Positions 2-61,011 are shown, numbered from the stretch's first letter. The stretch: DNA of 64,000 nt from an uncultured archaeon (GCA_964347265.1 CAYFXV010000001.1:115876-179875); one strand, 5' to 3'. Numbers and translations: made by a program. Notes: generated from the sequence alone by a model not told the origin.

Positions 2-3000
2 TCAAATGATTCTAACTCAAGTATTACTGGAGATTTTATAGGAATACCTCAAACAACGGAGAAGAGCTTTCCAATAGAAGTTTTGGCTGACGTTTCTATT
101 AATCTTGAGGTTGGAGAAAATCTTGTTAGAGCTACTTTAATTCTGGATAATGGAGATTTGCTTGAAAACCAGCAAATAGACTTTTACTTGAATAATACTC
201 TTCTTGGTTCTGGTTTAACTAATTCTGAAGGTTTTGTTGATTTTCCTGTTTCTGATATGGGAATTCTAAAAGCTGTTTTTAGTGGTGATTCCTCTTTGTT
301 TTATAATCCTTCTGAGATTGAGAAGGAAATAAAGCCAGTTGAAATATTAACTACTAAACAAGAAGAAAACATAACTTTAACTTTAGAAGAATCAGAAGGA
401 ATAAAGTTTTATAGAAGACTAGATTGTGACAGATGTGGACAACACAAAACTCCTCCTTTAACAGAAGTTAATATGAGTATATGGGTTAATAATGAAACAG
501 GTAATTTAACAGATTATTATCCTACAGAATGGACAATTATGAATAATAACGGTGGAACAATAACTGTTCATAATGAAACTTATAATAAAATAGAATTTGA
601 TAAGCCTTCTAGTTGGTATATAATAGAAAGTCCTAATAGAACACTTCCACCAACAAAGTACTATTTCTTTTCTGAATTCGGTGGAATAATAAGTGATAGC
701 TGGTTTGTAATAGTGTCTGATCCTGCAGCAGAATGTGTCTGGAAGCAAGATACTATCAGTTATTCTTGTGTTGAGAGTGGTGGACAGGATTCAGATTGTG
801 ATAATGGAAATAAAACATGGAATGTTGGTACAAGCTGTACAGAAGCAGGTGGTCCAACAATTGGCTGCTATATAGCAAACATAACTGTTTTGTTTTTCAC
901 AAGCAATGCTGCAACATCTCAGAATCATGATGCACAATTTATAATATATAACTCAACAGCTGCTCATTATCCAGCAAGTTTTAACTATCCTTATGAAGGA
1001 TATTTAGGTCCTTTATATTCATGTGGTAGTGTAAATAATGCTACAACTCAACCAAACAGTCCTACAACATGTAATTTAACTGGTCGTGGATTTAATGAAA
1101 CAAGCTATAACATAACATCATATGTGCCTGCCAAAGGGGCTGTTTCAGTCACACAGATTAATTATCAGTGGTGCTGGGAGGACGAGTTTCCAAAATTAGA
1201 TAATCCTCTTGTAAATGATACACAATCAGGATTTACTGCAGGTTGGGGAAGTATATTTAATTTTTCAGTGGAAGTATGGGAACCCCAAGGTAATGAAACG
1301 AATATAAGTTTATGGTATACTCAAACCGCAGGACAAAATTGGATGTTTGCAGGATCAAAAAATGATACCTCACCCCCAAAAACTGCTCCAGGAAATTTGA
1401 CTAATTTTACTTTAAACTTTAGTTGTAGTGATGGCTCAATTACAGATAGTTTATCAAATGATTTAGGAGTTTTGGGAGCGACAAAATACTACAAATTCAA
1501 TGCTACTGATCCTTATTTTAATACAAACGATACTTATAATTATTATGGAAACATTTATTTCACACCTGTTAAAGATAATTTAACACTTTCAAATGCAACT
1601 CCTAATAATTCTGTAATCAACAGAACAGATAGTATCGATCTTTCTCAATTAGTTAATGATAGTATTAGAAGTGTTTCTTTAGGAGAAAATGAAGTTGGTG
1701 GTACTGTATACATACAAAGAGATGGCACTAACTTTAATGATTATTATATATCTGGAACTAATTCTACAGGTTATCTTAATTACAATTTAACCTCAACAAC
1801 AATGTGTACTGATAATTTTGATGTGGGACTACAGAAATGGTATATATCAACTGATGGAAGTGCTTGCTATAATGGTAACCAATCAGAAAATCTTACTTTA
1901 ACTATTCAAGGTATTCTAACTGCAACAGTAAAACAGCCTACTGGCAATCAAAATTATGATAGAGGCCAGACAGTAACAATAAAAGGTTATATTGAGGATG
2001 ATTGTGGTGCAAAAACCGGATGGGAAGATAAAATAAACTTTACTCTAATAACTGAAGGTGGTACATATTATTGTAACCCTATTACAGAAGTAATAGGAGA
2101 AGCAGGAAATTATTCTTGTAATTGGGATTCTAATGAAGGAGTTGCAGGAACTTATAACATTACAGTTAATACAAGCGATGGATATTATTATAACTCTACA
2201 GTTAATGAAACAGATGCATTCAGTTTAGTGACAACGCCAAGATATGACAACATAAGTATTAGTCCATCGTCGGGAAGTGGGTGGGGCAATGAATATAATT
2301 ATACTGTGGATATTGATGATGCGACTGGTGAAGAAGTAAATGTTAGTTTTTGGTTACAAGAGTCAGGAGAAAGTTGGACATATCAAGAAAGTAAGAATTG
2401 TACTGTTGGCACAAATTGTACAGATGTTTGGTTTGCTAAAAACTTTACTTGTAATGATCAAAATACATGGTTTTTTAAATTTAATGTTACTGATCCATAT
2501 GGAACATCCAATGAATCAAGTGATACTGCAAATTCTCATGTAATAGGAAAGGACAATGTAACTATTGAGTATATGGCTGGAAACAACACAACTGCTAGTT
2601 TAGATACGCCTGCAACATTTATTCTAAGAATTTATGACTTTGAAAAAGGAACATATAATCTTAGTGCTCCAATTACTTTTAATGTAACAAAACAAGGTGC
2701 TGGAAATGATTATTATTTTGTAGGTACAAACACGACAAATGAAACCGGATATGTTATATTTGATTTTTATGCAGATCCAAGTTTTGATTCAGTCAGACAA
2801 TATTGGAGAGGTTATGTTAACACTACACAATCTCCTCAATGTTATGATTTTAATCAGTCTAATGAATATAATGTTACTACTCGTTCTAATGTTCCAAAAT
2901 TAGAAAACGAATCAGTTAGTCCTATAACAGGAGGGTGGGGTGATTCTAGAAGATTTAACATATCAGTGTATGATCAGAATGATACTACCAATGTAAGCTT

Positions 3001-27000: not shown

Positions 27001-30000
27001 TGAATGGTTGACATTAAGCAAATACAATATAACATTACTTTATGGTGAAATACAAACAATTTATGTTAATTACTCGTCTCCAAATATAACTTACAACACG
27101 AATTACACTGGTTATATAACTAGCAATATCACTGGAAGTTTAAGAGAAAATGCAACTACAAAAGAAGTGTCAACATTTGTAAGCTTATTTGTAAGTCCTT
27201 ATGGCGTAAACATAACTTATCCAACACAAAACAATCCTATCTTAGATGTTAATCCAGCAGATACTGTACAAGCAAAGGTTAACATAACTGAAAATGGAAC
27301 CATAGTGTCTTCTGCTGCAATGTTTGAAGTTACATTATTCAATGAAACGATGTCGAGTTCAGCAAATATTACTAGTTATCCTTTCAATGCTTCAGAAGGT
27401 TTTTGGTTAGTCAATTTCACAGCTCCGAATATTAGCATAGGAAGAATTTATAATTTAAATATTAGTGCAAACCATACTGGAGTTTATAATAATACAAGAT
27501 ATGATATTGAGTATGACTCTATAGTTTATAATGATACTACAGCACCTATTATAGATGTTATTTTTCCTGTAAGAACGCCTGCAAATCAAACTGTAAATAT
27601 AAAAATAAATATAACTGAATATGGTGGTTTAAAAAATATAACTGCAAACATTACTCATCCTGACAATTCATCTGAAATTGTTAACTTAACTTTCTTATCA
27701 AGAGTTTCTAATGCTTATACATATGAAAATAACTTTTCTAATACATCTCAAATAGGTATTTATGTTTTAAATACAACAGCATGTGACATTTCAGACAATT
27801 GTAATTCAACATCTTCCTCTTTTGAAATTTATCCAACTGCATACTTTAGTGGTCATGCAGTAGATGTAGAATCAGTAGGTGAAGAACCTATATACATTAA
27901 TTTCACATTTTATGATTCTAACACAACTACTATAAGGTTTAATTTTGGTACAAACTTAACTGACGGCTATTATAATGAAACTATTGATGTTAAATCATAT
28001 GATTTGAAAGTGAAAACTGTAAATCAAAGCTTCAGACATACTATTGAATTTAATACTATTAGCATTAGCAGTAATTATTATAATCCTATAATACTTGGTA
28101 ATATTCCAAGTGCTAGAACTACTATAAGTGCATTCAAAGGTCTTTACATTTATAGTAATTTGTCATCTTCTGATATGAAAATTATAATGGACTTTTCAGA
28201 ATGTTTGAGTAATGGTTGTGGTCCCCCTATTTATGATCCTCAACACTTAGCAATATACAAATACGATAGTAGCTGGACACCTAAAGTCACTTCTTCACAA
28301 AATACTTTATGGACTAGAATAAATAATGAAAATGGTGATAATGCAGATAATTCTGTTAATTTAACTACTCTTTCTGTTAGTGCAACTGTTTCATCACTAA
28401 ATGGAGCTTACATATTAGCTGAATTCATTTGTGGCGATGAAGAATGTGAAAACAGCTTTGGAGAAAGTACGAACAATTGTCCTATAGATTGTCCTAGCTT
28501 ACCACCAACACCACCTACAGAACCAACAGAACCAACACCTGGAGGAGGTGGAGGAGGTGCTGGTATGGGTACTGGAATAGCAGGTGTAGCAGGTGCTGGA
28601 GGTGCAGCTGCAGCAATAACCCCTGCTCAACCGCTTCCTGTACCATTAGAAATAAAATCAACTTTATTAGAGACTACATTAGCTCCAGGTGAAGAAAAAA
28701 TATTTTCAGTAGATATAACAAACAATTTAGACAGTGGTGCCACAGCAACACTTTTTGTTGAAGGACCTGTATTTGCTTTGTTGACTGTTCAAAAACCATC
28801 AATGTCAATAAAAGCAAAATCAACAGAAGTTAGTGAAATAAGAGCAGCAGCACCAGTAGCTGCTGTACCTGGGATTTATACAGGTGATTTAGTTATTAAA
28901 TCTGGCAGTATTGTGCATAGAATTCCTGTAACTATAACAGTAGAACCTGTTGTGGAACCATTGTTGGATGTACAAGTAAAAGCCTTATCTAAGGAAATTA
29001 ATCCTGGCGCAAATGTCAGCTTTGAAATATCTTTAGTAAATATGGGTGAAACAGCAGAAGTAGAAGACATAACTGTTACATACTCTGTTAAACCAGTAGC
29101 GAATCAAACAAATATAATATCTACTAGTTCAGAAACTTTAGCAGTTGAGGATAAAGTCACATACAGAAGAACAATTGAAATTCCAGCAGACACTCCTGAA
29201 GAGAAATACATTATTGAAGCTAATGCAAGTTATTGGTATGGTACAAAGTTTGCTGTATCTGCTGATAATTTTGATGTAACCACATTGCCTTGGCCTTTGC
29301 TGTTATTAAAAGCAGCATTCATGAATTGGATAACTTATGTTATTTTACTTGGAGGGGTTCCTGCACTAATAATTGGTATAAGATGGTATTCTGCTTATAG
29401 AGCATCTAAAGCAGCTAAAGCAAGATATATAGCACCTCTTGACTTTAAAACATTGCCACAAAAAAGTCCAGATTCATTATTAGTTGGTAAAATTGCTGAA
29501 ACTGATGTAAAAGCTTATATGAGTATTCCTCAACTCTTGATGCACTCAATAGCTGCAGGTGGAACTGGATCTGGAAAGACAGTATCTGCTATGGTAGCTT
29601 CAGAAGAGTTACTAAAGAGAAAAGTTCCAATAATTGTTTTCGATCCAACAGCACAATGGACAGGTTTCATGAAACCATGCAGCCTAAAACCAATGCTTAA
29701 ATTATATTCAAGATTTGGATTAAAGCCAACTGACGCAACAAGGTTTAAGACAACTGTTATATTAGTTGAAAACCCAAATATGCCAATTAACATAAAAGAT
29801 TACATGAAACCTGGAGAAATGACTGTCTTTGTAATGAACAGATTGAAAGGAGAAGATTTGGATAGATTTGTTAGAAGAAGTATACAAGCAATATTTGACA
29901 TGAGACCAACAGAATCCAAGCAAATAAAATTACTTGTAGTCTATGACGAAGTTCACAGATTATTACCAAAATATGGAGGAAAGAAAGGATATATTGCAAT

Positions 30001-30505
30001 AGAAAGAGCATGTAGAGAATTCAGAAAGTGGGGAATTGGATTATTCTTAATATCTCAGGTTTTGTTAGACTTCAAAGGAGCAATAAGAGCTAATATAGCA
30101 AACGAGATACAATTAAGAACAAAATATGAAGGAGACATAGGAAGAGTAAAATCAAAATATGGTTCTGATTATGCATCAAAAGTAACAAGACTTACCATTG
30201 GTACAGGTTTATTCCAGAATCCAGAATTTAATCACGGAAGACCTTGGTTCTTAATGTTTAGACCTTTGTTGCATTCACCGTTTGCTTTAACTGACAAAGA
30301 GATTGATACGTATATGAAATTAGATAAGAAAGTAAAAGAGATTGAAGACAAAATTAAGAAACTAAAAGCAAAGAAAGTTGATACTTACGACATAGAAGTT
30401 GAACTAAACATTGCTAGAGATAAAGTTAAAACTGCTGCTTTCAGAATGGCTAAAACTTATTTAGAATCAATTGAGAAAAGACTCGAAAAAATGGGAGTTA
30501 AATGA
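2..30505 (+). CDS. Giant (>10,140 aa, 5' partial) repetitive N-glycosylation-sequon-rich cell-surface protein ending in a TM helix and a cytoplasmic HerA/FtsK-superfamily (DUF87-like) P-loop ATPase domain
   Basis: A 30.4-kb uninterrupted reading frame in a ~30% GC genome, where random ORFs are short. The frame is open back to nt 2 with no stop (SNDSNSSITGDFIGIPQTTEKSFPIEV precedes the TTG at 83) and there is no N-terminal signal peptide, so the gene continues upstream. It contains hundreds of N-x-S/T sequons. A ~350-aa module periodicity is marked by P.V.P..GGWG..F.F.V.V.D.D..V.V.LW, YKFNATD, NPTC, VTDDCG and GxYNCTW motifs. The C-terminus is a PTPPTEPTEPTP + GGGGGGAGMGTGIAGVAGAGGAAAA linker, then two small beta-rich domains, the TM helix WITYVILLGGVPALIIGI followed by RWYSAYRASKAAKAR (positive-inside), and then Walker A AAGGTGSGKT, IIVFDPT, Walker B LLVVYDEVHRLLP and WGIGLFLISQ..D......IANEIQLR. 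Confidence 0.85.
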   Translation, partial: SNDSNSSITGDFIGIPQTTEKSFPIEVLADVSINLEVGENLVRATLILDNGDLLENQQIDFYLNNTLLGSGLTNSEGFVDFPVSDMGILKAVFSGDSSLFYNPSEIEKEIKPVEILTTKQEENITLTLEESEGIKFYRRLDCDRCGQHKTPPLTEVNMSIWVNNETGNLTDYYPTEWTIMNNNGGTITVHNETYNKIEFDKPSSWYIIESPNRTLPPTKYYFFSEFGGIISDSWFVIVSDPAAECVWKQDTISYSCVESGGQDSDCDNGNKTWNVGTSCTEAGGPTIGCYIANITVLFFTSNAATSQNHDAQFIIYNSTAAHYPASFNYPYEGYLGPLYSCGSVNNATTQPNSPTTCNLTGRGFNETSYNITSYVPAKGAVSVTQINYQWCWEDEFPKLDNPLVNDTQSGFTAGWGSIFNFSVEVWEPQGNETNISLWYTQTAGQNWMFAGSKNDTSPPKTAPGNLTNFTLNFSCSDGSITDSLSNDLGVLGATKYYKFNATDPYFNTNDTYNYYGNIYFTPVKDNLTLSNATPNNSVINRTDSIDLSQLVNDSIRSVSLGENEVGGTVYIQRDGTNFNDYYISGTNSTGYLNYNLTSTTMCTDNFDVGLQKWYISTDGSACYNGNQSENLTLTIQGILTATVKQPTGNQNYDRGQTVTIKGYIEDDCGAKTGWEDKINFTLITEGGTYYCNPITEVIGEAGNYSCNWDSNEGVAGTYNITVNTSDGYYYNSTVNETDAFSLVTTPRYDNISISPSSGSGWGNEYNYTVDIDDATGEEVNVSFWLQESGESWTYQESKNCTVGTNCTDVWFAKNFTCNDQNTWFFKFNVTDPYGTSNESSDTANSHVIGKDNVTIEYMAGNNTTASLDTPATFILRIYDFEKGTYNLSAPITFNVTKQGAGNDYYFVGTNTTNETGYVIFDFYADPSFDSVRQYWRGYVNTTQSPQCYDFNQSNEYNVTTRSNVPKLENESVSPITGGWGDSRRFNISVYDQNDTTNVSLWRSTSTGGPWIFVYSENYTSVDTWQNLSFLINFTCSEVRTDPWYYKFNATNAIGNKNTTTADSTRNFTVSKNDVIFVDFYGNNTIANRSGSQENLLFLRLVDGNGTNLSDYNASFYVTTDGENFPAVGVSNDSNSSGYVHYYFNPSCSPKNQVGDQMWKVEVGDACYQTNSTNTSGIYLNLTVMGNILITLSNPDGTENVTQRSNMLFLGSSDDDCGDSLTLNTTSGYEEVEYYANNSSTYGFYCDGYTLIGANSYRCYWKTNTSTPVGSYNGSMFVNKNYYYPNNTLDDADRGWLFYVEVLREFVNVSVNPSSEMWDYVNWNFSAVATSGDDENETIKLLLKKGAGAWRFCEDAIAQCSNMTPTNCTHCENQTYFWYANFTESNAGTWFYKFQMNNTNTLAADHETSGTDSFDVLTSAIRVYLENVTVGSSCGGYTCSWGGGNFTFNVTVNTTGVNNATVFLWYSPTNSEPWTLIEQDNYTIPGDQWQQLNFSKRYNCSDIGTNYYFFNATNYNGTTNTTASQTFTVTRDNVTFNYIEGHNSTANRTGIQTTLLSFQAKDLNGTNLSSFPIKYSITTNNVTYYTDNNFIVITDSSGYANLSFNATCANDYSGAPKFLVGDQQWKAEVNDTELSCYYNNDTSNFLYRNLTVMGNILITLSNPDGTENVTQRSNMLFLGSSDDDCGDSLTLNTTSGYEEVEYYANNSSTYGFYCDGYTLIGANSYRCYWKTNTSTPVGSYNGSMFVNKNYYYPNNTLDDADRGWLFYVEVLREFVNVSVNPSSEMWDYVNWNFSAVATSGDDENETIKLLLKKGAGAWRFCEDAIAQCSNMTPTNCTHCENQTYFWYANFTESNAGTWFYKFQMNNTNTLAADHETSGTDSFDVLTSAIRVYLENVTVGSSCGGYTCSWGGGNFTFNVTVNTTGVNNATVFLWYSPTNSEPWTLIEQDNYTIPGDQWQQLNFSKRYNCSDIGTNYYFFNATNYNGTTNTTASQTFTVTRDNVTFNYIEGHNSTANRTGIQTTLLSFQAKDLNGTNLSSFPIKYSITTNNVTYYTDNNFIVITDSSGYANLSFNATCANDYSGAPKFLVGDQQWKAEVNDTELSCYYNNDTSNFLYRNLTVMGDINITFTKPDGTSNYTQEDTMLFQGYTYDDCHDALLPTVKFYANNSSDNSSECTNVNILGENVFECDWETTIETQRGWYNTTMKANITGHYNNFSINSGDPGLFYLFPIYKLQNEGAVPTTEGWGYKNWNFSINASSGDPDNVYNVTFQINKGSPPVGSTPCNDSVCVNQTYKECSYPDCVGRTVYWYRNFSYNDQGTWFYKFLLNTEETSGNDIIIVEEDNITINRSSPPDETIVNRSGSQSVLFVVFVNDTDANHTAGNLTDGFPSATIYFNVTNTSGNYITYGSNLTNDTGHSNVSFNPNCTYPNGTQNWTSYTLNDPNYKNFTMNVHNITIWGDLEPQEIRTYNTTDESDIFYWDQTINVTGVIEDDCGNRISNETGINVTFKIYKNDTYPSEAIALCTDVEYLGNGVYSCQWFANTYENTTYKITMNASNVSLHNNGTYTKPGAFGLNVPPNTPPLVEAGSVTPNPGAWGSNFNFSVNVTDEDNYQNVTVYLWYSSDGNEPWTIINQTTCVENCTNNNETTIYFNKSDYSCQDIGTRYFKFNATDNSTKENAGSEQDEGPYMLNLTRNNVDFINAVGDGGTVNRSGTQNITFFIQINDTIKNVLVTSNVTKGRFWVTYDELNWDDGSDNRTSNASSYINYTFNPTCTPTRYNASGSQKWKAGVLNDSCYADNNSTNYSLTIKGDLVNSIIEPNGDVVSDPNNVTIIGNVTSDCSDDFVTDANVTFRISHESFTYFAEPDPANNNGTYYNATRNVTVTEGGNYSVIMNSSRSIYNPDNDTTSNAFHHQINPELTNDYVTPSSKAWGTTFYFYVNVTDDDDNVTVYLWTRCTGGNTTANDCYAGSEFKLNDTQTCFDCVNNQTQFSVTTVSNSIGNYEWFFNSSDSNGGINNTSIKTFNITKRPIYFVHQQGNESNVSRIGSNTTILQVKVYRVGVNGGADDELDGLPVRFWITLNGTDWSSTIRQNTSGQTGAGLVEHYFNPTCPTPEFFKTGQQKWNTTFAGNAIYFSNTSENFNLNINSTFIGIINVPNGDTFATGSNIFTSGNLTDECEIIIGATVTYGVEGEPTVTCSGTDHSNGTYTCTLPTSGLLTGWYNETMNASKAYYENLYHIDENNFEMRGGPTLFSEQINPATEGWGYNFTINVTAEDTDPSDYINISLWKSVGGGEWIEIATQDCDPGVCITPQPFFFYPEFNCTDYLNGPNINFKFNATDSYGLTDETSNFSATFQKDNVTFTIVQGQGINIGRENETNNFIIIVNDSDRNNNPVNASQESDNSINGTFWFGTVSGSATFDEGHNVSIEDASGQMNYTFDPNCSYEVGNEYWYAEIIDNQCYDDESMDTTSQTYNLFGQLKVNLYTPSEFSQWNVTDFINFRWNVSSDCYAQEGNISGLSNTFELNNFDNTSSCTDITEPFAGNYNCTWNSTSQPEGNWTVNITAINNTHWWNNFTSYADWFFLNNRNATGSNPTVNPPNGGWGGFYRYNITVNDSENDTVTCRLYTNTNGTWVYKGSDTISTPENCSIVVNDFSCGDQGSGEFYFMINDTYNVVNTSQTLGITDGPNLGTDEVTVTFIQEGGAPDFYVNRSGNQYTTMVLLVNDTIKSEQPNNTNVTFWVTTNETDYDSGNVVTTNSSGYAIYKFNPNCTGPFYDDGNQTWIGGTTDGCYNDTNTTTNFSLKIFGDLINTVIEPTGGFTVLRGNNTTIKVNVTDDCNASVNISTINITSIQDTNEYECSPILQYFDVSPTGFYNCTFNTSDPVLMPARYYKIKVNTTLENHTYEEVNETNAFFIETEPVLSSETVMLPETGWGSTNTFTVNFTDEDLDANSEVTVWFRKCTDETCTAYSPDWTSANSISNNSVSGIGINVSFNKTWGCGDIGYWQYKFNASDSRGYTNETSIHSFNLTKDDVSIEYFWGNNSVVNRSISENQVLSVRVKDLNKNVYVGVPIVSASGKFWVTNDTLNNFLEVFSDVSSDNSYLNRTWSPNCTFAIGPQKWKVNISNDGCYQDNTSDEFKINITTYPLVVNILQPTDNTTFLKGIDNILVKGNVTDDCSATLGKGIVNATVIFTAEKIDDGFSSSTPALCTVYNESDGEYNCTILNTTHEQVDWNYGIYNITMNATKNYYNNSITKTEEDAFVLASEPELKTITVSSTQGGSTGGWGEIWTYSIQLRDNDTNTVNVSLWAYNLSGTDVWELLNSTTCPGTLCPNPTSSFQTITFTGHNYSCSNLEGLYSRGITYKFNASDNLNYTNQSSNDTFTLERDNSFTLYISGGGTSVDREGDATTRLILQVQDEDRGYVIVEGGVSAKIFVTYNQTQWDSGADLTTNSSPNGGYVNYDFNATCSYETGLQWWRGGPYDDSCYKPSNNTPNRSVYVWGQLKNNLELPNYGSIYYTGDPITARYNTTSDCAGESLIANATPASIEFSLSGSTWFNCTSFNNEYDGWYNCTWTDTIQTHGQWDIRLNSSKSPDYYNSNSTIYTDWFNLTDSPPSYNNQNVSPSSGGWGTSFNFSINVSDIDANDINCTLFTYTNGAWTNRGTTTVSPSYPKLCSIIVDNFTCSDINTSSLNWFKWELEDVININNTTNTTGPNITKDSIQIIHLSGDGQPVNRTYGSLTIKVFVNDTTKNQGVGSGSDPTATVYFNITTNGTNYITEDSDTTSSGNASIDFAPTCSNYSIGLQDWFAYVLGDSCYIDQNSSTFNLTVLGSLTPLITLPTGDKYLRGENDTIIRGNVTDDCSQAFNTSIVNFTAIHQDSSTENLCSPTNNENDGWYNCTVNNTTHATWTAGAYRIKFNVTANNYNYNESIDNCAPGTNDENGGWCTNNYKGFWLETKPNLTAPSVSPSGDGGWGETWTFTVNSTDEDYDNLRVRLWIRKCDDDLCGSPGAWQLTGSNTSVSGINTTVTFTKSNFDEDAIDSGGKWQYKFNVTDYVSAIPNYDGWDNNETLIYNFTLQPDDINITYFWGNNSVVNRSIAPSQSNVTLSVRVYDTDRNALLSAGAGGTGKFYVTTDPYDTNSFIVDKSGISVTGNGFINETFPNTLYPSSSEPCNYSIGPLRWRAEYSGSAYEATNSSDFFVNLTTYPLQVNLYNPDNDTFRRNVDPIPYIGNVTDDCTDVLGTGVSNVTTVTFQGYYGTNYPSWALCQDGSVTDNNNGTYNCSVTSSAVAAFNRYNLTFNATKEYYNDSNTTEIIDSFWIVTNPRLDGEGVTTDDQGSVHPYSWGAVWTFSVTVTNPDVSQYTFDDMNLSLWLNLTGDWELANSTIADADDSDYATGKQVSFIQYFDCGDVGSKQYKFNITSFWNYNNTTAANGFSIDKDDVTAVFGSDPDNINRESGSELFVFRIRDDDNSSSYVTNSSTNVTIYFAYEENLNEYNISYTVNPNSTGYLNYSLDPDCNYSTGIHYWKGGIEEDGCYYGDNISAATYNITGQLKNNLTLPVYNSNYNVTDQIPVNFSTLSDCSNDRTDENPVINASDFSIEMSLDGSSWSECSSDNSYLGWYNCTWNSTDKSEGQWDVRVNSSKDGWFYSNSSIYTDWFNLLNWNVTNTSVPAVSPTEDGWTRTYNYTVNVSDQEGDTINCSLFISKDDQATWTYNGSYIVSGTPGIVTTGTCFIEINDFTCANMGTDNWFKWRIENGEPQNAWNTSAIQGPNLTESNVTVILIEGDDYVFNRSYGGNQVRRLGVNVYDDDNNSFNPNIYVSFWITNDTSSYRLETNNTTDSSGNASYYFDPNCTHSVGMQYWVAGVTDNCYEDMNATSTNFTLNVTGDLKFNITSPVNDTYQGTKYIRGVDNITFRGNISDECGADITSAVINFTAIQSGEEHMCSSVNNEGDGFYNCTVDGSDTSSWSPSNYQSSISYSVKFNATASFYNYNETIDTCSPATSGSGCTDSKRGFLLETTPNLTDPGVSPSGDGGWGETWTFTVNSTDEDYDNLRVRLWIRKCDDDLCGSPGAWQLTGSNTSVSGINTTVTFTKSNFDEDAIDSGGKWQYKFNVTDYVSAIPNYDGWDNNETLIYNFTLQPDDINITYFWGNNSVVNRSIAPSQSNVTLSVRVYDTDRNALLSAGAGGTGKFYVTTDPYDTNSFIVDKSGVSVTGNGFINETFPNSGVCNYSIGPLRWRAEYSGTAYNDTNSSDFYDDFFVNLTTYPLQVNLYNPDNDTFRRNVDPIPYIGNVTDDCTDVLGTGVSNVTTVTFQGYYGTNYPSWALCQDGSVTDNNNGTYNCSVTSSAVAAFNRYNLTFNATKEYYNDSNTTEIIDSFWIVTNPRLDGEGVTTDDQGSLNPYSWGATWTFSVTVTNPDVTGYSFDDMNLSLWLNLTGDWELANSTTCDADDSDYASGKSVSFIQDFDCGDVGSKEYKFNITSFWNYNNTTSANGFSILKDDVTIISDSDPANINRESGSGLFVFRIRDDDNASSYVTNSSTNAAIYFSYENVSEHNISYTVNPNSTGYLNYSLDPDCNYSTGIHYWKGGTTTDDCYYAVNLSSDPTFNVTGQLKNSIIQPSEDSEFAMGTLVNITSNISSDCQENVSSATVTHEASLYGSGTWEWANISAIENEEFGKYNSTWNTTFNQGGNWSFKINASKLNYYSNSTIFTNWTYLNNTAPTAENASVSPETDGWGSNYSFSISVDDMQYDNVTCKLFTYTAGSWSYRGNDTVYLGVGNCTVNVTDFTCSDINTTSLNWFKWEIDDATNVFNTSNVSAPSITKDNVTIYYEYGNNSTANRNMSQTDLLIVRIFDNNSQKYVGSQIPNATGRIFVTTNGNDFDSGTQNTTNSSGYLNIYFDATGDFSVGLQNWTGGTYGDSCYYDANLTQNYTLIVKGDLANSISSWISPGGKGESVVKPDNVSFQMLVKDDEDLGITGASLNVTFINSLYGNNFTCDTIMEISNGYYNCTINTTLMSAGWYNITIDSNKTYYNDGYYFDSDVFYVETIPALITPIILSHNGSDIGGWGETWTAITNVTDEDQDNVTLKVQVKKYTDPDTPANWLDENQSSYFDNPDLRGPVNQTINLTFQDLDFMDDQVVWQVRFMVNDTDGYGSISSYTNFTIDKDDILIELLYGDNEEVWRNGTETLSLILNVTDLDQNLPADQVNMTFYITTNSSDPESFDGGATYQTNTSGISEYPFQPDCLYSTGEQTWYGKNNPDPYYKYNFTQNYSLNIKSYIALEVNYPTGQSFLIGAQIPFIGRVFDECFNISNAEVNFYDRRPGATERFYTCYGTTDWGNGTYNCTWDSSNKPPGWHGVKIEARKEYHGNYPNYNQTIRYIDGYETHHLSTQPSISLGWSSYPSVDPKVDGWGKLRTFQAKITDLDGSLNNISLWKSFDNNTWYLINSTNMSPQGVDVQVRYNLSGVLTDPFKNRFSCDDLSNSTGGIVYFKFNTTDIFGYGDESEIDNFTVQVDNVTLTLDPLSNTTTRRIADNKAYLRFTIRDDDYGNYYPDNVNGSVWITLNGTNYSYNITNSSYSGNLTVYYNSTCNSDVGIQYWKGGTIDSCYEMKNTTNETLTVYGQLNVSLISPPNESVINRDKNVSLNSSVEDECSQSIFDATVNWYNSSSYSLGNDYNVTWHIPVEYKLGNETIITNATRTYYDYDSNNTTVYVYGWSDVSYIEPLNETTYDSGDGVDIACRVIDSNTTQPIANYAVFIYVNDESLENLTTDSNGWINTSWDTSGKSAGWYNITCSIEDNSTLYYNTSASQNETWIMLERPLKINIIRMDGSACQQGLVCKWIYRNDTFSPYKVNITVHVMDASIGSAQDANVTFYNSTNFLGNCTTNSTGWCYLENYNPANNTNPAIITIYINATRPENEDSVTNTSLLRVKGILNVTVISPPDIVRCGASGYDCSKSEAINLTVDVFSENGENASTLNPTVTWYNETSQVTSGGVSILLPQTKVKEQDTGNHNFMAVATKDNYDDGSANVTFNISGVVTVTWISPTVETPYPYDFYPTCYVEDEDAGIGVDEYLVNFSYKWEPTPDFTFNGTYLTNSSGYANYTFTPTQKGNISFNCTIGDNTSRYYSKSPTQYFDIEYDIWVKDLDPPEFYNVSIVPNESMEANLNYTNITVFVNDNYEIKTVKVYIEYPNTTTENLTMTNLTPIQSEFGYYNATYNLTFTPPIGGIYNITIYAIDGDTENNYNSTSKYNISVWGGINGSVSQCVNNTNDGDLTDCDSDITAPFISQTNSFTFEVRSNFTNLGPAGAYEINLTHSEDPVGSLTYDDPYHECGLLYPNETCSWNFNVTVPAAKPPGLYLTHVNSTWKNPDNTYQTVYNTTYISVDSNPIINITETELIKDIAHNQTTYIGNITIVSAGNDEVRNITLSWYGISGVMGYYNLALNCPLCSLDISPNQETVLFAADNFTSHINISVPAGQEPGNYLADLIVMSENAGNDTALLNLTVPLNDSWIRTPLSGTFGTILAPLNTSNLIGYINVTNIGNIKIAFEVIKSGDIYSYTKIDNQNWFSFDLEKLVTRPLNLTYSIPAAASVGVYDITIYIRNFSLTVPQQTVNFSLNVTDVPPNITDIQIVPTSFEQGYENVTIQANVTDNFAVDKVWTNITPPNGSSFILLMQNYTGFIYNITYVYPVAGTHEIIICANDSASLLACTSPINITSSDTTQLTISTNATLLNATQIRIDSGQGFAINFSVNNIGASRANNTNVSISYPSNITVSYDYFDFGEVLKNTSEYNITTITVENATAPGIYVVNLTVSWTNLNNTFNSSLFNITINVTPNAEIDILENVINKIIEEGDSDNATLTLRSIGNDNVTNVNISCSSGEICDPVNNFIIDIEPWNISLMPIGNITYVNITFGVPSGYPTGDHSGYIRVDWNDSTSTQNFSEEIPVNILVPANVSWIHNPKTIEKRVYDNETGSYGQINITNTGNANATLNLTINGTVAEWLTLSKYNITLLYGEIQTIYVNYSSPNITYNTNYTGYITSNITGSLRENATTKEVSTFVSLFVSPYGVNITYPTQNNPILDVNPADTVQAKVNITENGTIVSSAAMFEVTLFNETMSSSANITSYPFNASEGFWLVNFTAPNISIGRIYNLNISANHTGVYNNTRYDIEYDSIVYNDTTAPIIDVIFPVRTPANQTVNIKINITEYGGLKNITANITHPDNSSEIVNLTFLSRVSNAYTYENNFSNTSQIGIYVLNTTACDISDNCNSTSSSFEIYPTAYFSGHAVDVESVGEEPIYINFTFYDSNTTTIRFNFGTNLTDGYYNETIDVKSYDLKVKTVNQSFRHTIEFNTISISSNYYNPIILGNIPSARTTISAFKGLYIYSNLSSSDMKIIMDFSECLSNGCGPPIYDPQHLAIYKYDSSWTPKVTSSQNTLWTRINNENGDNADNSVNLTTLSVSATVSSLNGAYILAEFICGDEECENSFGESTNNCPIDCPSLPPTPPTEPTEPTPGGGGGGAGMGTGIAGVAGAGGAAAAITPAQPLPVPLEIKSTLLETTLAPGEEKIFSVDITNNLDSGATATLFVEGPVFALLTVQKPSMSIKAKSTEVSEIRAAAPVAAVPGIYTGDLVIKSGSIVHRIPVTITVEPVVEPLLDVQVKALSKEINPGANVSFEISLVNMGETAEVEDITVTYSVKPVANQTNIISTSSETLAVEDKVTYRRTIEIPADTPEEKYIIEANASYWYGTKFAVSADNFDVTTLPWPLLLLKAAFMNWITYVILLGGVPALIIGIRWYSAYRASKAAKARYIAPLDFKTLPQKSPDSLLVGKIAETDVKAYMSIPQLLMHSIAAGGTGSGKTVSAMVASEELLKRKVPIIVFDPTAQWTGFMKPCSLKPMLKLYSRFGLKPTDATRFKTTVILVENPNMPINIKDYMKPGEMTVFVMNRLKGEDLDRFVRRSIQAIFDMRPTESKQIKLLVVYDEVHRLLPKYGGKKGYIAIERACREFRKWGIGLFLISQVLLDFKGAIRANIANEIQLRTKYEGDIGRVKSKYGSDYASKVTRLTIGTGLFQNPEFNHGRPWFLMFRPLLHSPFALTDKEIDTYMKLDKKVKEIEDKIKKLKAKKVDTYDIEVELNIARDKVKTAAFRMAKTYLESIEKRLEKMGVK
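3539..6346 (+). repeat. Perfect 2 × 1404-bp (468-codon) in-frame tandem duplication inside the giant gene (3539–4942 = 4943–6346). A diverged third unit starts at 6347
   Basis: Identical antisense shadow ORFs at 4295..4675 and 5699..6079 are offset by 1404. Direct comparison shows identity from aatctaactgttatgggtaacattc (3539 / 4943) to ...ttcttgtatagaa (4942 / 6346). Flanking bases differ (3538 g vs 4942 a). The third copy diverges after ...gttatgggt (gatataaat instead of aacattcta). Confidence 0.85.
14888..16580 (+). repeat. ~1.7-kb block, copy A, of a near-identical (>95%) intragenic duplication spaced 3189 bp apart
   Basis: Identical shadow ORFs 14956..15144 / 18145..18333 and 15120..15314 / 18309..18503. 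The protein block VSPSGDGGWGETWTFTVNSTDEDYDNLRVRLWIRKCDDDLCGSPGAWQLTG...YSLDPDCNYSTGIHYWKGG recurs with a few substitutions and small indels (TLYPSSSEPCNYSIGP vs SGVCNYSIGP). Confidence 0.75.
18077..19760 (+). repeat. ~1.7-kb block, copy B, of the same near-identical intragenic duplication
   Basis: See copy A. The offset is 3189 bp, equal to one ~1063-aa supermodule. Confidence 0.75.
29290..30505 (+). other. C-terminal single-pass TM segment (~29290–29385) plus cytoplasmic HerA/FtsK-like (DUF87-type) ATPase domain of the giant protein
   Basis: Walker A codons gcaggtggaactggatctggaaagaca lie at ~29555–29581. Walker B ttacttgtagtctatgacgaagttcac lies at ~29931–29957. The ordered motif set GTGSGKT / hhhFDP / hhhhDEVH / R.FRKWGhGhhhhSQ is typical of DUF87/HerA-branch ATPases (pattern recognition, not searched). 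Confidence 0.6.
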
Positions 30506-41225: not shown

Positions 41226-41321
41226 TACTGTATCACTTGTATCTGCTATAGTAATTGTTACACTCAAAAAAATTGCTAAAAATACAAAAACTATCCCCAA
41301 AACTAACAAATTCCGGTTCAC
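40434..41321 (-). CDS. Secreted/surface protein, tandem paralog B (295 aa), with a divergent signal peptide
   Basis: N-terminus MNRNLLVLGIVFVFLAIFLSVTITIA. The rest is identical to paralog A. Confidence 0.75.
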   Translation of the reverse strand: MNRNLLVLGIVFVFLAIFLSVTITIADTSDTVTLDVNVSETASISVIPSYINWTQVATGSTGGYRNLTIKNAGSLNVSNLSAYVDSLTDETTRPYQSGDPSDFAAGGVITLSNDTTNYYFVGRIEWNWTEDIADHDWSAVTSPVSWGYHRNTSNDYVWVLGNGTPPVGDPNGIYCNNSAQFAIETDEDLGTTATRTPINAISLTTSTGSSGWAYGAVTTGTLSGHCVAADVSCTKIYIIKYDRTANYTDCANTEYFYNDDLTPGNSYTIRVDSWVPNGIPSGNMSQATLTIYAVS

Positions 41322-58612: not shown

Positions 58613-58640
58613 AGCATTGTGCGTTGACGAGTTGTTGAAA

Positions 58641-59279: not shown

Positions 59280-59283
59280 TTAT

Positions 59284-60571: not shown

Positions 60572-60572
60572 C

Positions 60573-61007: not shown

Positions 61008-61011
61008 TAAA

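What the first reader, a model, noticed from the sequence alone, without database searches (positions are those of the whole stretch)
2..30505. >30-kb uninterrupted ORF, 5' partial: the gene is even larger than the 10,140 codons visible
The frame containing the TTG at 83 is open back to nt 2 with no stop, and the first residues show no signal peptide, so the N-terminus lies upstream of the window. A 30-kb stop-free frame in a ~30% GC genome cannot arise by chance, so this is a bona fide coding region and among the largest prokaryotic genes. There are ~29 modules of ~350 aa, each with a P.V.P..GGWG..FNFSVNV.D.D..V.V.LW segment, YKFNATD, NPTC, VTDDC and GxYNCTW Cys motifs (probable disulfide-stabilised Ig/fibronectin-like folds).
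Basis: seen in the sequence. Interest (0 to 1): 0.7.

Follow-up and report, generated by a model that had tools for sequence, protein, structure and literature searches.

The report
Giant archaeal surface fibre with ATPase tail
The 30-kb open frame is a real gene for a ~10,205-residue sugar-coated surface fibre of a tiny symbiotic (DPANN) archaeon, anchored by one membrane helix to an internal HerA-type ATP motor; this design is already known from the 'SPEARE' giants of salt-loving nano-archaea, so this is a very large new member, not a new kind.

Summary
Frame +2 is stop-free from nt 2 to 30502 (10,167 codons, TGA at 30503-30505; chance about 1e-385). The gene is 5'-partial, but only 38 codons are missing. 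A 99.9 %-identical protein from another assembly supplies a classical Sec signal peptide, which gives a 10,205-aa, 1.13-MDa precursor.

The module count was overestimated. There are 20 full and 3 partial tri-domain beta-sandwich modules (aa 409-7710), not about 29.

It consists of a Cys knot, a Pro/Thr-Gly linker, two beta-sandwich domains, the only TM helix (aa 9765-9795), a cytoplasmic HerA/DUF87 P-loop ATPase with intact motifs, and a coiled coil.

All 710 N-glycosylation sequons (three times the number expected) lie outside the membrane. None lies inside.

The fused architecture recurs in 70 of 80 related DPANN loci, and dN/dS is 0.09-0.16. Directly downstream are a coiled-coil protein (73 of 80 loci) and, usually, a ~1,900-aa MG2 protein.

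Published SPEARE/giant membrane-anchored proteins of Nanohaloarchaeota share the core architecture, and Aenigmarchaeota homologues of the intracellular domain were already reported. Verdict: a real gene and a new member of a known kind. It exceeds the archaeal giants cited in the papers I read (9,409 aa and about 9,000 aa).

The parts
2..30505 (+). Giant gene, 5'-partial in the window. It has 10,167 codons plus a TGA stop. The inferred full precursor is 10,205 aa; the 38 missing N-terminal residues (signal peptide MKHKGYSGQSQLLIPLIIILTSVAAFA, then ANTTIDIINST) lie about 114 nt upstream of the window.
   Evidence: Open frame. N-terminus from P0175 (99.86 % identical over aa 1-1458) and from P0121/P0122. 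dN/dS 0.09-0.16 against L008.
2..1225 (+). Distal 'tip' region (aa 1-408). It contains a conserved domain FYRRLDCxxCGQHKxPP...PPTKYYFFSE...W.VIVSDP and a Cys-rich stretch. No relative was found in Pfam, or by sequence among solved structures.
   Evidence: Alignment with P0121, P0122, P0123 and P0125. Pfam. PDB sequence search.
1226..23131 (+). Array of 20 full and 3 partial tri-domain modules (aa 409-7710). Each full module is three beta-sandwich domains. Modules 9-20 form a three-module super-repeat of about 1,050 aa.
   Evidence: HMM self-search. Alignment A1. AF2 model (pLDDT 84, pTM 0.72). Foldseek hits to titin Ig, C5/A2M MG domains and the MpIBP adhesin. Lag-3 identity 46 % against 26 % at other lags.
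3539..6364 (+). Exact in-frame tandem duplication. The unit is 1,404 nt (468 aa); nt 3539-4960 are identical to nt 4943-6364.
   Evidence: Relatives carry 2 (P0128) or 4 (P0130) tandem copies of the same unit. P0175's sequence ends inside this repeat.
14818..19188 (+). Segmental duplication. nt 14818-16005 match nt 18007-19188 at 93-100 % identity, with a 3,183-3,189-nt offset (module 13 is 98 % identical to module 16, and module 14 is 65 % identical to module 17).
23132..28351 (+). Membrane-proximal ectodomain with a different architecture (aa 7711-9450). It has MG4-like, NPCBM_assoc/CARDB-like and other beta-sandwich domains. aa 8293-9224 are paralogous to the neighbouring 1,964-aa MG2 protein.
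   Evidence: Pfam. blastp against the MG2 protein.
28418..28615 (+). Cys knot (AEFICGDEECENSFGESTNNCPIDCPS, aa 9473-9499) followed by a Pro/Thr- and Gly/Ala-rich linker (aa 9500-9538) that is predicted to be disordered. This is where collinearity with the mature ~725-aa stand-alone paralogues begins.
28646..29278 (+). Two membrane-proximal beta-sandwich domains (NPCBM_assoc/NEW3-like), aa 9549-9759.
   Evidence: Pfam. AF2 model residues 99-309.
29294..29386 (+). The only hydrophobic TM segment of the protein (aa 9765-9795). A K/R-rich stretch follows on the C-terminal side, consistent with the positive-inside rule.
   Evidence: Hydropathy scan. AF2 helix. Flanking sequence.
29474..30271 (+). 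Cytoplasmic HerA/DUF87-type P-loop ATPase (aa 9825-10090). Motifs: Walker A GGTGSGKT (aa 9853-9860), Walker B VVYDEVH (aa 9979-9985), REFRKWG (aa 10005-10011), and SQ in LISQVLLDF (aa 10016-10024).
   Evidence: Pfam DUF87 and HerA_C. NCBIfam HerA and CedD. PDB sequence searches return HerA only. Foldseek top hit is HerA 4d2i. The motifs are invariant in 27 homologues.
30293..30499 (+). C-terminal cytoplasmic coiled coil (aa 10098-10166). This is the most conserved stretch (98.6 % identity, dN/dS 0.03 against L008).
30502..32241 (+). Gene for a 579-aa K/E-rich cytoplasmic coiled-coil protein. Its ATG overlaps the giant gene's TGA (ATGA). A homologue lies directly downstream of the ATPase in 73 of 80 related loci.
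33569..39463 (+). Gene for a 1,964-aa exported, sequon-rich MG2/NPCBM_assoc protein with a C-terminal TM segment. It is a conserved member of the cluster, present as a ~1,900-aa downstream gene in most related loci.
46331..47107 (+). MinD/ParA-type ATPase gene (a second copy lies at 57289-58053). A MinD/ParA gene lies within 10 kb downstream of the ATPase in about 29 of 80 related loci.

Best explanation
This is the gene for a SPEARE-type giant membrane-anchored surface protein of an Aenigmatarchaeota (DPANN) archaeon.

Shown by the sequence and comparisons:
- A Sec signal peptide lies just upstream of the window.
- About 9,760 residues follow that are extracellular. They form roughly 80 or more beta-sandwich domains carrying 710 N-glycosylation sequons and 189 cysteines.
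- Next come a flexible Pro/Thr-Gly linker, two membrane-proximal beta-sandwich domains and a single TM helix.
- The cytoplasmic end is a HerA/FtsK-superfamily P-loop ATPase with intact Walker A, Walker B and REFRKWG motifs, followed by a coiled coil.
- The gene overlaps by ATGA the start of a gene for a cytoplasmic coiled-coil partner, and both belong to a gene cluster conserved across DPANN.

Inferred, not shown:
- The ectodomain is an N-glycosylated, disulfide-stabilised fibre a few hundred nm long (about 4 nm per domain). It reaches out from the small cell and binds a host or neighbour surface through its distal tip.
- The ATPase tail oligomerises into a HerA-like hexameric ring under the membrane and so bundles several fibres.
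- ATP hydrolysis by this ring, working with the coiled-coil partner and possibly positioned by MinD/ParA, drives translocation of macromolecules (DNA or protein) or a mechanical change at the contact site.
For: Real gene:
- The frame is stop-free with chance about 1e-385.
- dN/dS against L008 is 0.16 for the ectodomain and 0.09 for the cytoplasmic tail.
- Independent assemblies are collinear with the whole length: P0175 aa 1-1458 (99.9 %), P0128 aa 1873-4935 (63 %), P0127 aa 1922-7653, P0145/P0147 aa ~5800-10167, and L008 aa 6377-10166 (86 %).

Topology:
- The signal peptide comes from P0175, P0121 and P0122.
- There is one hydrophobic segment in 10,167 aa, with a K/R-rich stretch after it.
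- All 710 sequons lie before the TM helix and none after it. The number expected from composition is 232.
- Other exported proteins of the window have 5.7-7.2 sequons per 100 aa, while cytoplasmic ones have 0.2-0.8.

Fold:
- The module model has pLDDT 84 and is three beta-sandwiches resembling titin Ig, A2M/C5 MG domains and the MpIBP adhesin.

ATPase:
- Pfam gives DUF87 at 1.9e-7.
- A profile search of PDB sequences returns only HerA chains, best 4d2i at 6e-10.
- The Foldseek top hit is hexameric HerA.
- The catalytic motifs are invariant in 27 homologues of 38-72 % identity.

Recurrence:
- At least 565 species-representative genome loci encode relatives of the tail.
- In 70 of the 80 best loci, the ATPase frame is open to the start of the fetched locus. 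That is at least 4,000 codons wherever the full 10-kb flank was available.
- The coiled-coil partner lies downstream in 73 of 80 loci, and the MG2 protein in most.

Literature:
- The same core architecture (signal peptide, Ig-like ectodomain, TM, cytosolic ATPase, coiled coil) is described for SVXNc_0300 and BNXNv_0298 and for SPEARE proteins (PMC10266531).
- SPEARE intracellular regions carry DUF87/P-loop domains. Related sequences were reported in Aenigmarchaeota, and the SPEARE protein was detected by proteomics (PMC6642349).
Against: - No function has been demonstrated for any member. Host binding, hexamer formation and translocation are all inferences.
- A ring of six single TM helices is unlikely to form a channel for DNA or protein on its own, and no obvious channel partner was identified in the window.
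- The solved relatives are soluble DNA translocases (HerA), not secretion ATPases. The HAS-barrel domain of HerA is absent here.
- The ectodomain lacks the laminin-G and protease domains used to name SPEARE proteins (Pfam).
- The downstream gene here is a coiled-coil protein. It is not the second VirB4-like ATPase reported in nanohaloarchaea.
- One relative (L002) carries the orthologous region broken by at least 6 frame changes, so the gene may be dispensable in some populations, or that assembly may contain indel errors.
- The exact 1,404-nt tandem duplication could be an assembly artefact, in which case the length would be 468 aa less.
Confidence: 0.8

Rival explanations
1. The protein is part of a type-IV-secretion-like 'straw'. 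The ATPase tail would be a VirB4/TraG-type secretion ATPase that pumps effectors through or along the giant ectodomain into the host, as proposed for nanohaloarchaeal giants.
For: - PMC10266531 proposes this for SVXNc_0300 and BNXNv_0298, which share the architecture.
- There are weak Pfam and NCBIfam hits to T4SS-DNA_transf (7.6e-4), TraD, TraC and TraB.
- The ATPase belongs to the FtsK-HerA superfamily, which includes VirB4 and VirD4 (established knowledge).
Against: - Every significant sequence and structure match is to HerA. No VirB4, VirD4 or TraG chain appears at E <= 0.001 in the profile-against-PDB search or among the 50 Foldseek hits listed.
- The gene downstream is a coiled-coil protein with no Walker A motif, not a second VirB4.
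- Pfam detected no other T4SS component in the window.
- A string of solid beta-sandwich domains offers no conduit.
Confidence: 0.15
2. The protein is a structural cell-envelope component, such as an S-layer-like coat, a sheath or an inter-cell matrix fibre, with no role in host interaction. The ATPase tail would serve only in its own assembly, positioning or turnover.
For: - Heavy N-glycosylation potential and tandem Ig-like domains are typical of archaeal envelope proteins (established knowledge).
- MinD/ParA genes in the cluster suggest positioning of a large complex.
- Short ~725-aa paralogues lacking the fibre coexist in the same genomes, so the ATPase module has a function that does not depend on a long adhesin.
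Against: - The genome holds one copy of a 1.1-MDa protein anchored by a single helix, which is not the usual design of a lattice-forming S-layer protein.
- The family is concentrated in DPANN lineages, which are thought to be episymbionts.
- The distal region and the repeat number vary between relatives, as expected for a recognition molecule.
Confidence: 0.15
3. The 30-kb ORF is an assembly artefact: a chimera or a mis-joined repeat array that fuses a surface-protein gene to a separate ~725-aa TM-ATPase gene.
For: - The gene contains an exact 1,422-nt tandem repeat and a second 93-100 % duplication, which are hard to assemble.
- Stand-alone ~725-aa TM-ATPase genes exist.
- In L002 the junction region is split into several ORFs.
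Against: - The junction is read through in frame in independent assemblies (P0004 and P0009). These include L008, L009, L011, L014, L033 and L066, which align as single HSPs of 3,800-4,250 aa.
- In 70 of 80 loci the frame is open as far as the fetched locus start.
- L002 is collinear but frameshifted, so it does not hold separate genes.
- dN/dS is low throughout the shared region.
- Tandem copies of the same ~460-aa unit also occur in relatives.
Confidence: 0.03

Closest known systems
SPEARE proteins / giant membrane-anchored extracellular proteins of Nanohaloarchaeota: Ca. Nanohaloarchaeum antarcticus NAR1_1133 (5,998 aa), Ca. Nanopetramus SG9 (8,553 aa), Ca. Nanohalococcus occultus SVXNc_0300 (9,409 aa), and BNXNv_0298 (8,880 aa). 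Sources: PMC6642349 and PMC10266531.
   Same: - Same order of parts: Sec signal peptide, thousands of extracellular residues dominated by tandem Ig-like domains, a single TM helix near the C-terminus, a cytoplasmic DUF87/P-loop ATPase, and a terminal coiled coil.
- Short 655-717-aa versions exist with the same topology as the ~725-aa paralogues found here.
- Both occur in DPANN. The tail is 50-53 % identical to tails in Nanohalarchaeota MAG loci (L041 and L074).
- Hamm et al. already listed an Aenigmarchaeota homologue of the intracellular domain.
   Different: - The ectodomain is not homologous; in L074 only the last ~620 aa align.
- Pfam detected no laminin-G domain, serine-protease or toxin-like region, or N-terminal PQQ beta-propeller. 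In this window a PQQ/FG-GAP propeller is a separate 1,757-aa protein.
- The fibre is built from a lineage-restricted 340-aa tri-domain module, found in 681 carriers among 1.84e9 representative proteins.
- The downstream gene is a coiled-coil protein, not a VirB4-like ATPase.
- At 10,205 aa it is longer than any of these named proteins.
HerA hexameric DNA translocases: Sulfolobus HerA (PDB 4d2i), Thermococcus HerA-NurA, and bacterial anti-phage HerA (SIR2-HerA, DUF4297-HerA).
   Same: - The RecA-like ATPase core carries Walker A, Walker B, an Arg-finger-type 'RE.RK.G' motif and an SQ motif.
- These are the best and only significant matches in the PDB sequence searches, and hexameric HerA is the top Foldseek hit.
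   Different: - There is no N-terminal HAS barrel; the core follows directly after a TM helix.
- It is membrane-tethered and fused to a giant ectodomain.
- No NurA, SIR2 or DUF4297 partner gene was seen in the window.
- NCBIfam scores lie far below the equivalog cut-offs (32 bits against 800).
Giant bacterial repeat adhesins, such as MpIBP of Marinomonas primoryensis (1.5 MDa, PDB 4p99 and 5irb), and Embp, SiiE and LapA-type RTX adhesins.
   Same: - They are megadalton fibres made of many tandem Ig-like beta-sandwich domains that project a distal binding region far from the cell.
- The module model matches MpIBP repeats in Foldseek.
- Repeat copy number varies between relatives.
   Different: - The bacterial adhesins are exported by T1SS or by Sec plus sortase and are held in the outer membrane or cell wall.
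- They have no TM-linked cytoplasmic ATPase.
- They are stabilised by Ca2+ rather than being Cys- and sequon-rich.
- There is no sequence homology.
Halomucin of Haloquadratum walsbyi (about 9,000 aa; cited in PMC6642349 and PMC10266531).
   Same: It is a very large secreted archaeal glycoprotein-like surface protein, and it is the usual benchmark for the 'largest archaeal protein'.
   Different: It is mucin-like and sugar-binding, is not described as having a C-terminal TM helix plus ATPase, and belongs to a different lineage (Halobacteria). I did not compare the sequences.

Membership tests
SPEARE-type giant membrane-anchored proteins of DPANN (core architecture as in PMC6642349 and PMC10266531) | Very long protein (thousands of residues), most of it extracytoplasmic and preceded by a signal peptide | tested here: met
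   The precursor is 10,205 aa. The signal peptide comes from the 99.9 %-identical P0175. About 9,760 aa precede the only TM helix.
SPEARE-type giant membrane-anchored proteins of DPANN (core architecture as in PMC6642349 and PMC10266531) | Single TM helix near the C-terminus, with the C-terminal region in the cytoplasm | tested here: met
   There is one hydrophobic segment, at aa 9765-9795. A K/R-rich stretch follows it. The last 372 aa hold no sequon, against 710 before the helix.
SPEARE-type giant membrane-anchored proteins of DPANN (core architecture as in PMC6642349 and PMC10266531) | Conserved intracellular P-loop/DUF87 domain, the most conserved part of the family, followed by a coiled coil | tested here: met
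   Pfam gives DUF87 at 1.9e-7. The tail is 50-53 % identical to tails in Nanohalarchaeota MAG loci L041 and L074. The Hamm supplement lists DUF87/SSF52540 in SPEARE tails and an Aenigmarchaeota homologue. The coiled coil is in the AF2 model. I could not retrieve the named SPEARE sequences, so no direct alignment to them was made.
SPEARE-type giant membrane-anchored proteins of DPANN (core architecture as in PMC6642349 and PMC10266531) | Ectodomain rich in adhesion-type (Ig-like) domains | tested here: met
   The AF2 model of one module is three beta-sandwiches, and Foldseek matches Ig/MG/adhesin repeats.
SPEARE sensu stricto (name-giving features in Hamm et al. 2019) | At least one laminin-G domain in the ectodomain | tested here: not met
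   Pfam hmmscan of the whole protein at E <= 0.01 gives no Laminin_G hit. A very divergent LamG fold could have been missed.
SPEARE sensu stricto (name-giving features in Hamm et al. 2019) | [quoted passage not shown] | tested here: not met
   Pfam finds no protease or endonuclease family. PMC10266531 also disputes that these domains exist in the original SPEARE proteins.
HerA (FtsK-HerA superfamily) ATPases | RecA-like core with Walker A, Walker B, an Arg finger and a sensor motif | tested here: met
   GGTGSGKT, VVYDEVH, REFRKWG and SQ are invariant in 27 homologues, and they align to HerA 4d2i.
HerA (FtsK-HerA superfamily) ATPases | N-terminal HAS beta-barrel domain and a NurA (or other nuclease/effector) partner | tested here: not met
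   The ATPase core begins about 30 residues after the TM helix. Pfam detected no NurA, SIR2 or DUF4297 in the window. NCBIfam HerA equivalog scores are 32 bits or less against cut-offs of 800 or more.
HerA (FtsK-HerA superfamily) ATPases | Hexameric ring assembly and NTP-driven translocation | not testable with these tools
   This is inferred only from the fold similarity to hexameric HerA.
VirB4/VirD4 (TraG) type IV secretion ATPases | Significant sequence or structure similarity to VirB4/VirD4, and co-located T4SS components | tested here: not met
   There is only a sub-threshold T4SS-DNA_transf hit (18.9 bits against a cut-off of 20.1). No VirB4 or VirD4 chain appears in the PDB searches. 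No T4SS genes were detected nearby.

The most novel reading that the evidence does not exclude
The giant protein may be the outer arm of a conserved, DPANN-wide trans-envelope apparatus that has not been described as such. Its parts would be the fibre-TM-HerA-like ATPase protein, the cytoplasmic coiled-coil protein whose start overlaps the giant's stop, a MinD/ParA positioning ATPase, and a ~1,900-aa TM-anchored alpha-2-macroglobulin-like (MG2) protein. This set recurs from Aenigmatarchaeota to Nanohalarchaeota, Micrarchaeota and Woesearchaeota-labelled MAGs. In this reading, a hexameric ATPase ring bundles six fibres of about 0.3 um at one site on the cell and powers exchange of macromolecules with the host. 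The ~725-aa paralogue would be the minimal, fibre-less version of the same machine.
Probability: 0.25. Interest if true: 0.8.

Novelty: new member of a known kind. Interest (0 to 1): 0.5.

Why it matters
DPANN archaea are very small cells that are thought to depend on direct contact with host cells, and how they attach and exchange material is still unresolved. This gene shows that the SPEARE-type design, a megadalton glycosylated fibre wired through one helix to a cytoplasmic HerA-like motor, is not peculiar to nanohaloarchaea.

In Aenigmatarchaeota it reaches 10,205 residues, longer than any archaeal protein named in the papers I read. It sits in a gene cluster conserved in many DPANN lineages.

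The survey also yields concrete material for experiments:
- invariant catalytic motifs that can be mutated;
- a short ~725-aa paralogue suited to biochemistry and cryo-EM;
- a conserved coiled-coil partner and an MG2 protein to test for interaction.

It also illustrates how such genes grow, through hierarchical and very recent tandem duplication of a 340-aa tri-domain module.

Tried and rejected
- **Exact look-up of the source contig** through the 579-aa neighbour returned only a 5.3-kb Logan contig. It could not extend the window upstream.
- **Search with the N-terminal 400 aa** found no identical protein, only relatives of 48-70 % identity. The near-identical P0175 turned up later in the profile search, but its contig is not on record.
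- **Linking my hits to the accession RLG14629.1** cited by Hamm et al. failed; the cluster members carry other accessions.
- **No tRNA and no Rfam family** was found in the window, so taxonomy rests on the archaeal L1 equivalog and on the labels of related MAGs.
- **Pfam and NCBIfam** gave nothing for the 579-aa partner beyond coiled-coil noise, and nothing for the distal tip.
- **Literature searches** for 'DPANN + DUF87' (0 papers), for 'DPANN + macroglobulin' and for 'DPANN + FtsK/HerA + membrane-anchored' found no description of the conserved cluster.
- **Considered and rejected:**
  - an assembly chimera (see the rival explanations);
  - a bacterial RTX/T1SS adhesin, because the context is archaeal, the signal peptide is Sec-type and there are no RTX repeats;
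  - a viral or plasmid origin, because ribosomal protein genes L1, L10 and L12 lie on the same contig.
- **Not used:** the third homologous-protein search, the metagenome scan and the last fold search, because the answers they could give would not have changed the verdict.
Full report
**1. The observation**

- The window has 31.7 % G+C. Frame +2 is free of stops from nt 2 to nt 30502, which is 10,167 codons, and ends with TGA at 30503-30505. It is by far the longest open frame on either strand. The ORF lister reports 10,140 codons from the first TTG at nt 83.
- With the window's base composition, a stop is expected in 8.4 % of random codons. The chance of 10,167 consecutive sense codons is therefore about 1e-385.

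**2. How much is missing upstream**

- The translated sequence starts SNDSNSSITGDFIGIPQ... and has no hydrophobic leader.
- A search with the first 400 residues found two relatives that begin MKYKGYSGQSQLLIPLVIILTS(I/V)VA(L/F)AANTT...INST and then continue into the same sequence as the window. They are P0121 (70 % identity) and P0122 (48 % identity, from an Aenigmarchaeota MAG).
- The profile search later recovered P0175. Its residues 39-1496 are 99.86 % identical to residues 1-1458 of the window protein, with two mismatches. Its first 38 residues are MKHKGYSGQSQLLIPLIIILTSVAAFA-ANTTIDIINST. This has a basic n-region, a 16-residue hydrophobic core and an A-F-A motif, so it is a classical Sec-type signal peptide.
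The precursor is 10,205 aa, with a mass of 1.13 MDa before glycosylation and a pI of 4.2.

**3. Anatomy of the ectodomain**

*Modules.* An iterative HMM self-search seeded with one period finds 20 complete modules. The matched stretches are 301-344 aa and the period is about 335-370 aa. There are also three partial modules between aa 409 and 7710. Only fragmentary matches follow, up to aa 8247. The figure of about 29 modules is an overestimate obtained by dividing the whole length by 350.

AlphaFold2 run on this alignment gives a confident all-beta model (pLDDT 84, pTM 0.72) of three consecutive beta-sandwich domains. Foldseek matches titin I67-I69, the MG domains of complement C5 and A2M, OPCML, phage Hoc and the MpIBP ice adhesin. 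This is the generic tandem Ig/MG fibre fold.

*Hierarchical repeats.* Among modules 9-20, identity is 46 % at a lag of three modules and about 26 % at other lags. This indicates a super-repeat of about 1,050 aa.

*Recent duplications.*
- nt 3539-4960 are identical to nt 4943-6364. This is a 1,404-nt, in-frame tandem unit of 468 aa.
- nt 14818-16005 match nt 18007-19188 at 93-100 % identity.
- Relatives have two (P0128) or four (P0130) tandem copies of the same ~460-aa unit, and P0175's sequence ends inside the repeat. I therefore read the duplication as real copy-number change. An assembly error cannot be excluded without reads.

*Other regions.*
- Residues 7711-9450 have a different set of beta-sandwich domains (MG4-like and NPCBM_assoc-like). 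They are partly paralogous to the neighbouring 1,964-aa MG2 protein.
- The distal 408 residues contain a conserved domain, FYRRLDCxxCGQHKxPP...PPTKYYFFSE...VIVSDP. It also occurs right after the signal peptide of shorter, otherwise unrelated proteins. It has no Pfam relative and no relative by sequence among solved structures.

**4. Glycosylation signature and topology**

- The protein carries 710 N-x-S/T sequons, against 232 expected from its composition. All 710 lie before the TM helix, and none lies in the last 372 residues.
- Across the window, proteins with signal or anchor segments have 5.7-7.2 sequons per 100 aa. The MinD proteins and the coiled-coil protein have 0.2-0.8.
- A Kyte-Doolittle scan finds only one hydrophobic segment in 10,167 residues, at aa 9765-9795. 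The K/R-rich stretch YRASKAAKARY follows it.
- Together with the signal peptide, this gives a type-I topology: about 9,760 residues outside the cell and about 370 inside.
- The ectodomain holds 189 cysteines at conserved module positions, and the tail holds 2. This is consistent with extracellular disulfides, but that is an inference.

**5.

- Pfam places DUF87 (HerA central domain, 1.9e-7) and HerA_C after the TM helix, with weaker hits to T4SS-DNA_transf and DEAD. NCBIfam gives HerA and CedD at scores far below their equivalog cut-offs.
- Among PDB sequences, the single protein and the 27-sequence profile both match only HerA-family chains. The best is Sulfolobus HerA 4d2i, at 2e-5 and 6e-10 respectively.
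- The AlphaFold2 model of the last 717 residues (pLDDT 79) shows these parts in order:
  - a disordered Cys knot plus Pro/Thr-Gly/Ala linker;
  - two beta-sandwich domains;
  - a long TM helix;
  - a RecA-like alpha/beta core;
  - a 70-residue coiled coil.
- Foldseek's top hit is hexameric HerA, followed by the anti-phage HerAs. No VirB4 or VirD4 chain appears among the 50 hits listed.
- Walker A (GGTGSGKT, aa 9853-9860), Walker B (VVYDEVH, aa 9979-9985), REFRKWG (aa 10005-10011) and the SQ motif are invariant in 27 homologues of 38-72 % identity.

**6. Is the fusion real and recurrent?**

*Two forms of the tail.* The tail has 370 significant database relatives, mostly labelled Aenigmarchaeota, with some Nanoarchaeota and Pacearchaeota. 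Complete members on long contigs are about 725 aa. The closest hits are partial. The ~725-aa proteins consist of a signal peptide, Cys knot, P/G linker, two beta-sandwich domains, a TM helix, the ATPase and a coiled coil. They are collinear with the giant's last ~700 residues.

*Read-through in other assemblies.* The partial close relatives P0004 and P0009 read through in frame upstream of the Cys knot.

*Survey of genomes.*
- A scan of species-representative genomes found at least 565 loci encoding relatives.
- In 70 of the 80 best loci, the frame holding the ATPase stays open to the start of the fetched locus. That is at least 4,000 codons wherever the full 10-kb flank existed.
- These loci come from MAGs labelled Aenigmatarchaeota, Micrarchaeota, Woesearchaeota, Undinarchaeota, Nanoarchaeia, Nanohalarchaeota and others.
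- Three MAGs each hold a locus of the long fused form (L009, L010, L016) and a locus of the ~725-aa form (L085, L086, L087). L086 is cut by the contig end at 718 codons.

*Collinearity.*
- L008, L009, L011, L014, L033 and L066 align with the giant as single HSPs of 3,790-4,250 aa at 86 % down to 35 % identity.
- In the Nanohalarchaeota locus L074, only the last ~620 aa align.
- Long proteins from the profile search cover the rest of the gene collinearly.

*Selection.* dN/dS against L008 is 0.16 over 3,381 ectodomain codons and 0.09 over the tail. The lowest values are in the TM helix and the terminal coiled coil.

*One exception.* In L002 the orthologous region is collinear but passes through at least 6 frame changes. 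That is either a pseudogene or indel errors.

The fusion is therefore real, widespread in DPANN and under purifying selection.

**7. Genomic context**

- The giant's TGA overlaps the ATG (ATGA) of a 579-aa K/E-rich coiled-coil protein that has no TM segment and no Walker A motif. A homologue lies directly downstream of the ATPase in 73 of 80 loci.
- A 1,964-aa sequon-rich MG2/NPCBM_assoc protein with a C-terminal TM segment follows. It is present as a ~1,900-aa gene in most loci, including the Nanohalarchaeota one. A MinD/ParA gene lies within 10 kb in about 29 loci.
- The rest of the window encodes more exported proteins: a 797-aa CarboxypepD_reg protein, a 1,757-aa PQQ/FG-GAP beta-propeller protein, and proteins of 716 and 427 aa. 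It also encodes a second MinD. The archaeal ribosomal proteins L1, L10 and L12 follow.
- The locus is therefore chromosomal and archaeal. There are no tRNAs and no Rfam hits.

**8. Comparison with what is known**

*Hamm et al. 2019 (PMC6642349).* They defined the nanohaloarchaeal SPEARE proteins as follows:
- They are up to 8,553 aa long.
- They are mostly extracytoplasmic, with one TM segment near the C-terminus.
- The intracellular region is conserved. Their supplement annotates it as P-loop/DUF87.
- Similar sequences were found in Woesearchaeota, Aenigmarchaeota, Micrarchaeota and Altiarchaeales.
- Short 655-717-aa versions exist. The 717-aa one has residues 1-322 outside, a TM at 323-345 and residues 346-717 inside.
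- The protein was detected by proteomics.

*PMC10266531.* This paper re-analysed these proteins and the 9,409-aa SVXNc_0300.
- It describes a Sec signal, about 75 Ig-like domains, a TM segment, a cytosolic VirB4/TraG-like ATPase and a coiled coil.
- It disputes the protease and endonuclease domains.
- It proposes a T4SS-like 'straw'.

*Where this gene fits.* The core architecture found here is already known, and an Aenigmarchaeota relative of the tail was already noted.

*What differs.*
- The ectodomain is non-homologous and built of a lineage-restricted tri-domain module, found in 681 carriers among 1.84 billion representatives. The longest carrier among the 150 best hits listed is 6,938 aa.
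- Pfam detects no LamG or protease domain.
- The downstream partner is a coiled-coil protein, not a second ATPase.
- My searches place the ATPase with HerA, not VirB4/TraG.
- It is larger than the named examples.

**9. Mechanism**

*Shown:* the topology, the domain order, the intact catalytic motifs, purifying selection and the conserved neighbours.

*Inferred:*
- With roughly 80 or more beta-sandwich domains at about 4 nm each, the ectodomain would span a few hundred nm, comparable to the diameter of a DPANN cell.
- The variable distal tip and the variable repeat number fit a recognition and adhesion role.
- The HerA-like tail probably forms a ring under the membrane, which would bundle the fibres. 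It would couple ATP hydrolysis to translocation or to a mechanical change, helped by the coiled-coil partner.
- The Pro/Thr-Gly linker may be a hinge or a processing site. Hamm et al. found the ecto- and cytoplasmic parts in different size fractions.

*Confidence:*
- About 0.9 for the identity of the gene as a real SPEARE-type giant.
- About 0.5 for the host-contact function.
- Lower for any specific substrate.

The T4SS 'straw' and purely structural readings remain possible. The assembly-chimera reading is essentially excluded for the fusion.

**10. Verdict**

It is a new, Aenigmatarchaeota member of the SPEARE-type class, not a new kind of system.

The most interesting open point is the conserved four-gene cluster. 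I found no description of it in the searchable literature.

Noticed in passing
window 30502-58053 and 58617-61987; L006 2536-3036: The ~58-kb block of surface-protein genes, which includes the giant gene, seems to be embedded in the ribosomal L11-L1-L10-L12 neighbourhood. rpl1, rpl10 and rpl12 lie at 58.6-62 kb, interleaved with NUDIX, GNAT and ferredoxin-thioredoxin genes. In a related MAG (L006), Spt5 and rpl11 lie about 3 kb upstream of the orthologous gene's start.
   Followed up: partly
L002 3848-11203: The orthologous gene in JGI contig Ga0527077_0545 (76 % identical ATPase) is collinear with giant aa 7700-10163 but changes frame at least 6 times. Gene callers split it into products of 8,615, 123, 401, 123, 380, 66 and 400 aa. 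It is either a decaying pseudogene or an assembly rich in indel errors.
   Followed up: partly
L085, L086, L087 (same MAGs as L009, L010, L016): Three MAGs each carry a locus of the giant fused form and a locus of a ~725-aa TM-ATPase paralogue about 47 % identical in the tail (L086 is cut by the contig end at 718 codons). The paralogue loci also have a coiled-coil partner downstream, and L085 and L087 have a MinD gene too. This suggests two parallel systems, or a minimal version of the machine.
   Followed up: partly
window 2-736; P0123, P0125: The N-terminal domain FYRRLDCxxCGQHKxPP...PPTKYYFFSE...W.VIVSDP is shared with shorter, otherwise unrelated secreted proteins, where it also follows the signal peptide directly. 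It has no Pfam relative and no relative by sequence among solved structures. It may be the host-binding or an export-related module.
   Followed up: partly
L007 2253-3200 (P0121): A JGI contig encodes a 315-aa protein with its own stop codon. It is 70 % identical to the giant's N-terminus, including the signal peptide, and then diverges. It may be a truncated or frameshifted copy of the gene's 5' end.
   Followed up: no
window 47132-52405: This gene encodes a 1,757-aa sequon-rich exported protein with a PQQ/FG-GAP beta-propeller. In the nanohaloarchaeal giant SVXNc_0300, PQQ-like propellers form part of the giant protein's N-terminus; here a propeller is a separate gene in the same island. No homologue was found within 10 kb of the related loci.
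   Followed up: partly
window 46331-47107 and 57289-58053: Two paralogous MinD/ParA-type ATPase genes (both with GKGGVGKT) flank the distal part of the surface-protein island.
   Followed up: no
window 33569-39463 and window 24878-27673 (giant aa 8293-9224): The membrane-proximal part of the giant protein is paralogous (24-29 % identity) to aa 630-1091 of the neighbouring 1,964-aa MG2 protein. This points to domain exchange or duplication between cluster members.
   Followed up: partly
window 39474-41321 (- strand): Two adjacent paralogous-looking genes (294 and 295 aa) lie on the opposite strand. Each has an N-terminal hydrophobic segment and 4.1 sequons per 100 aa, and neither has a Pfam hit. 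Homologues appear in only 6 of 80 related loci.
   Followed up: no
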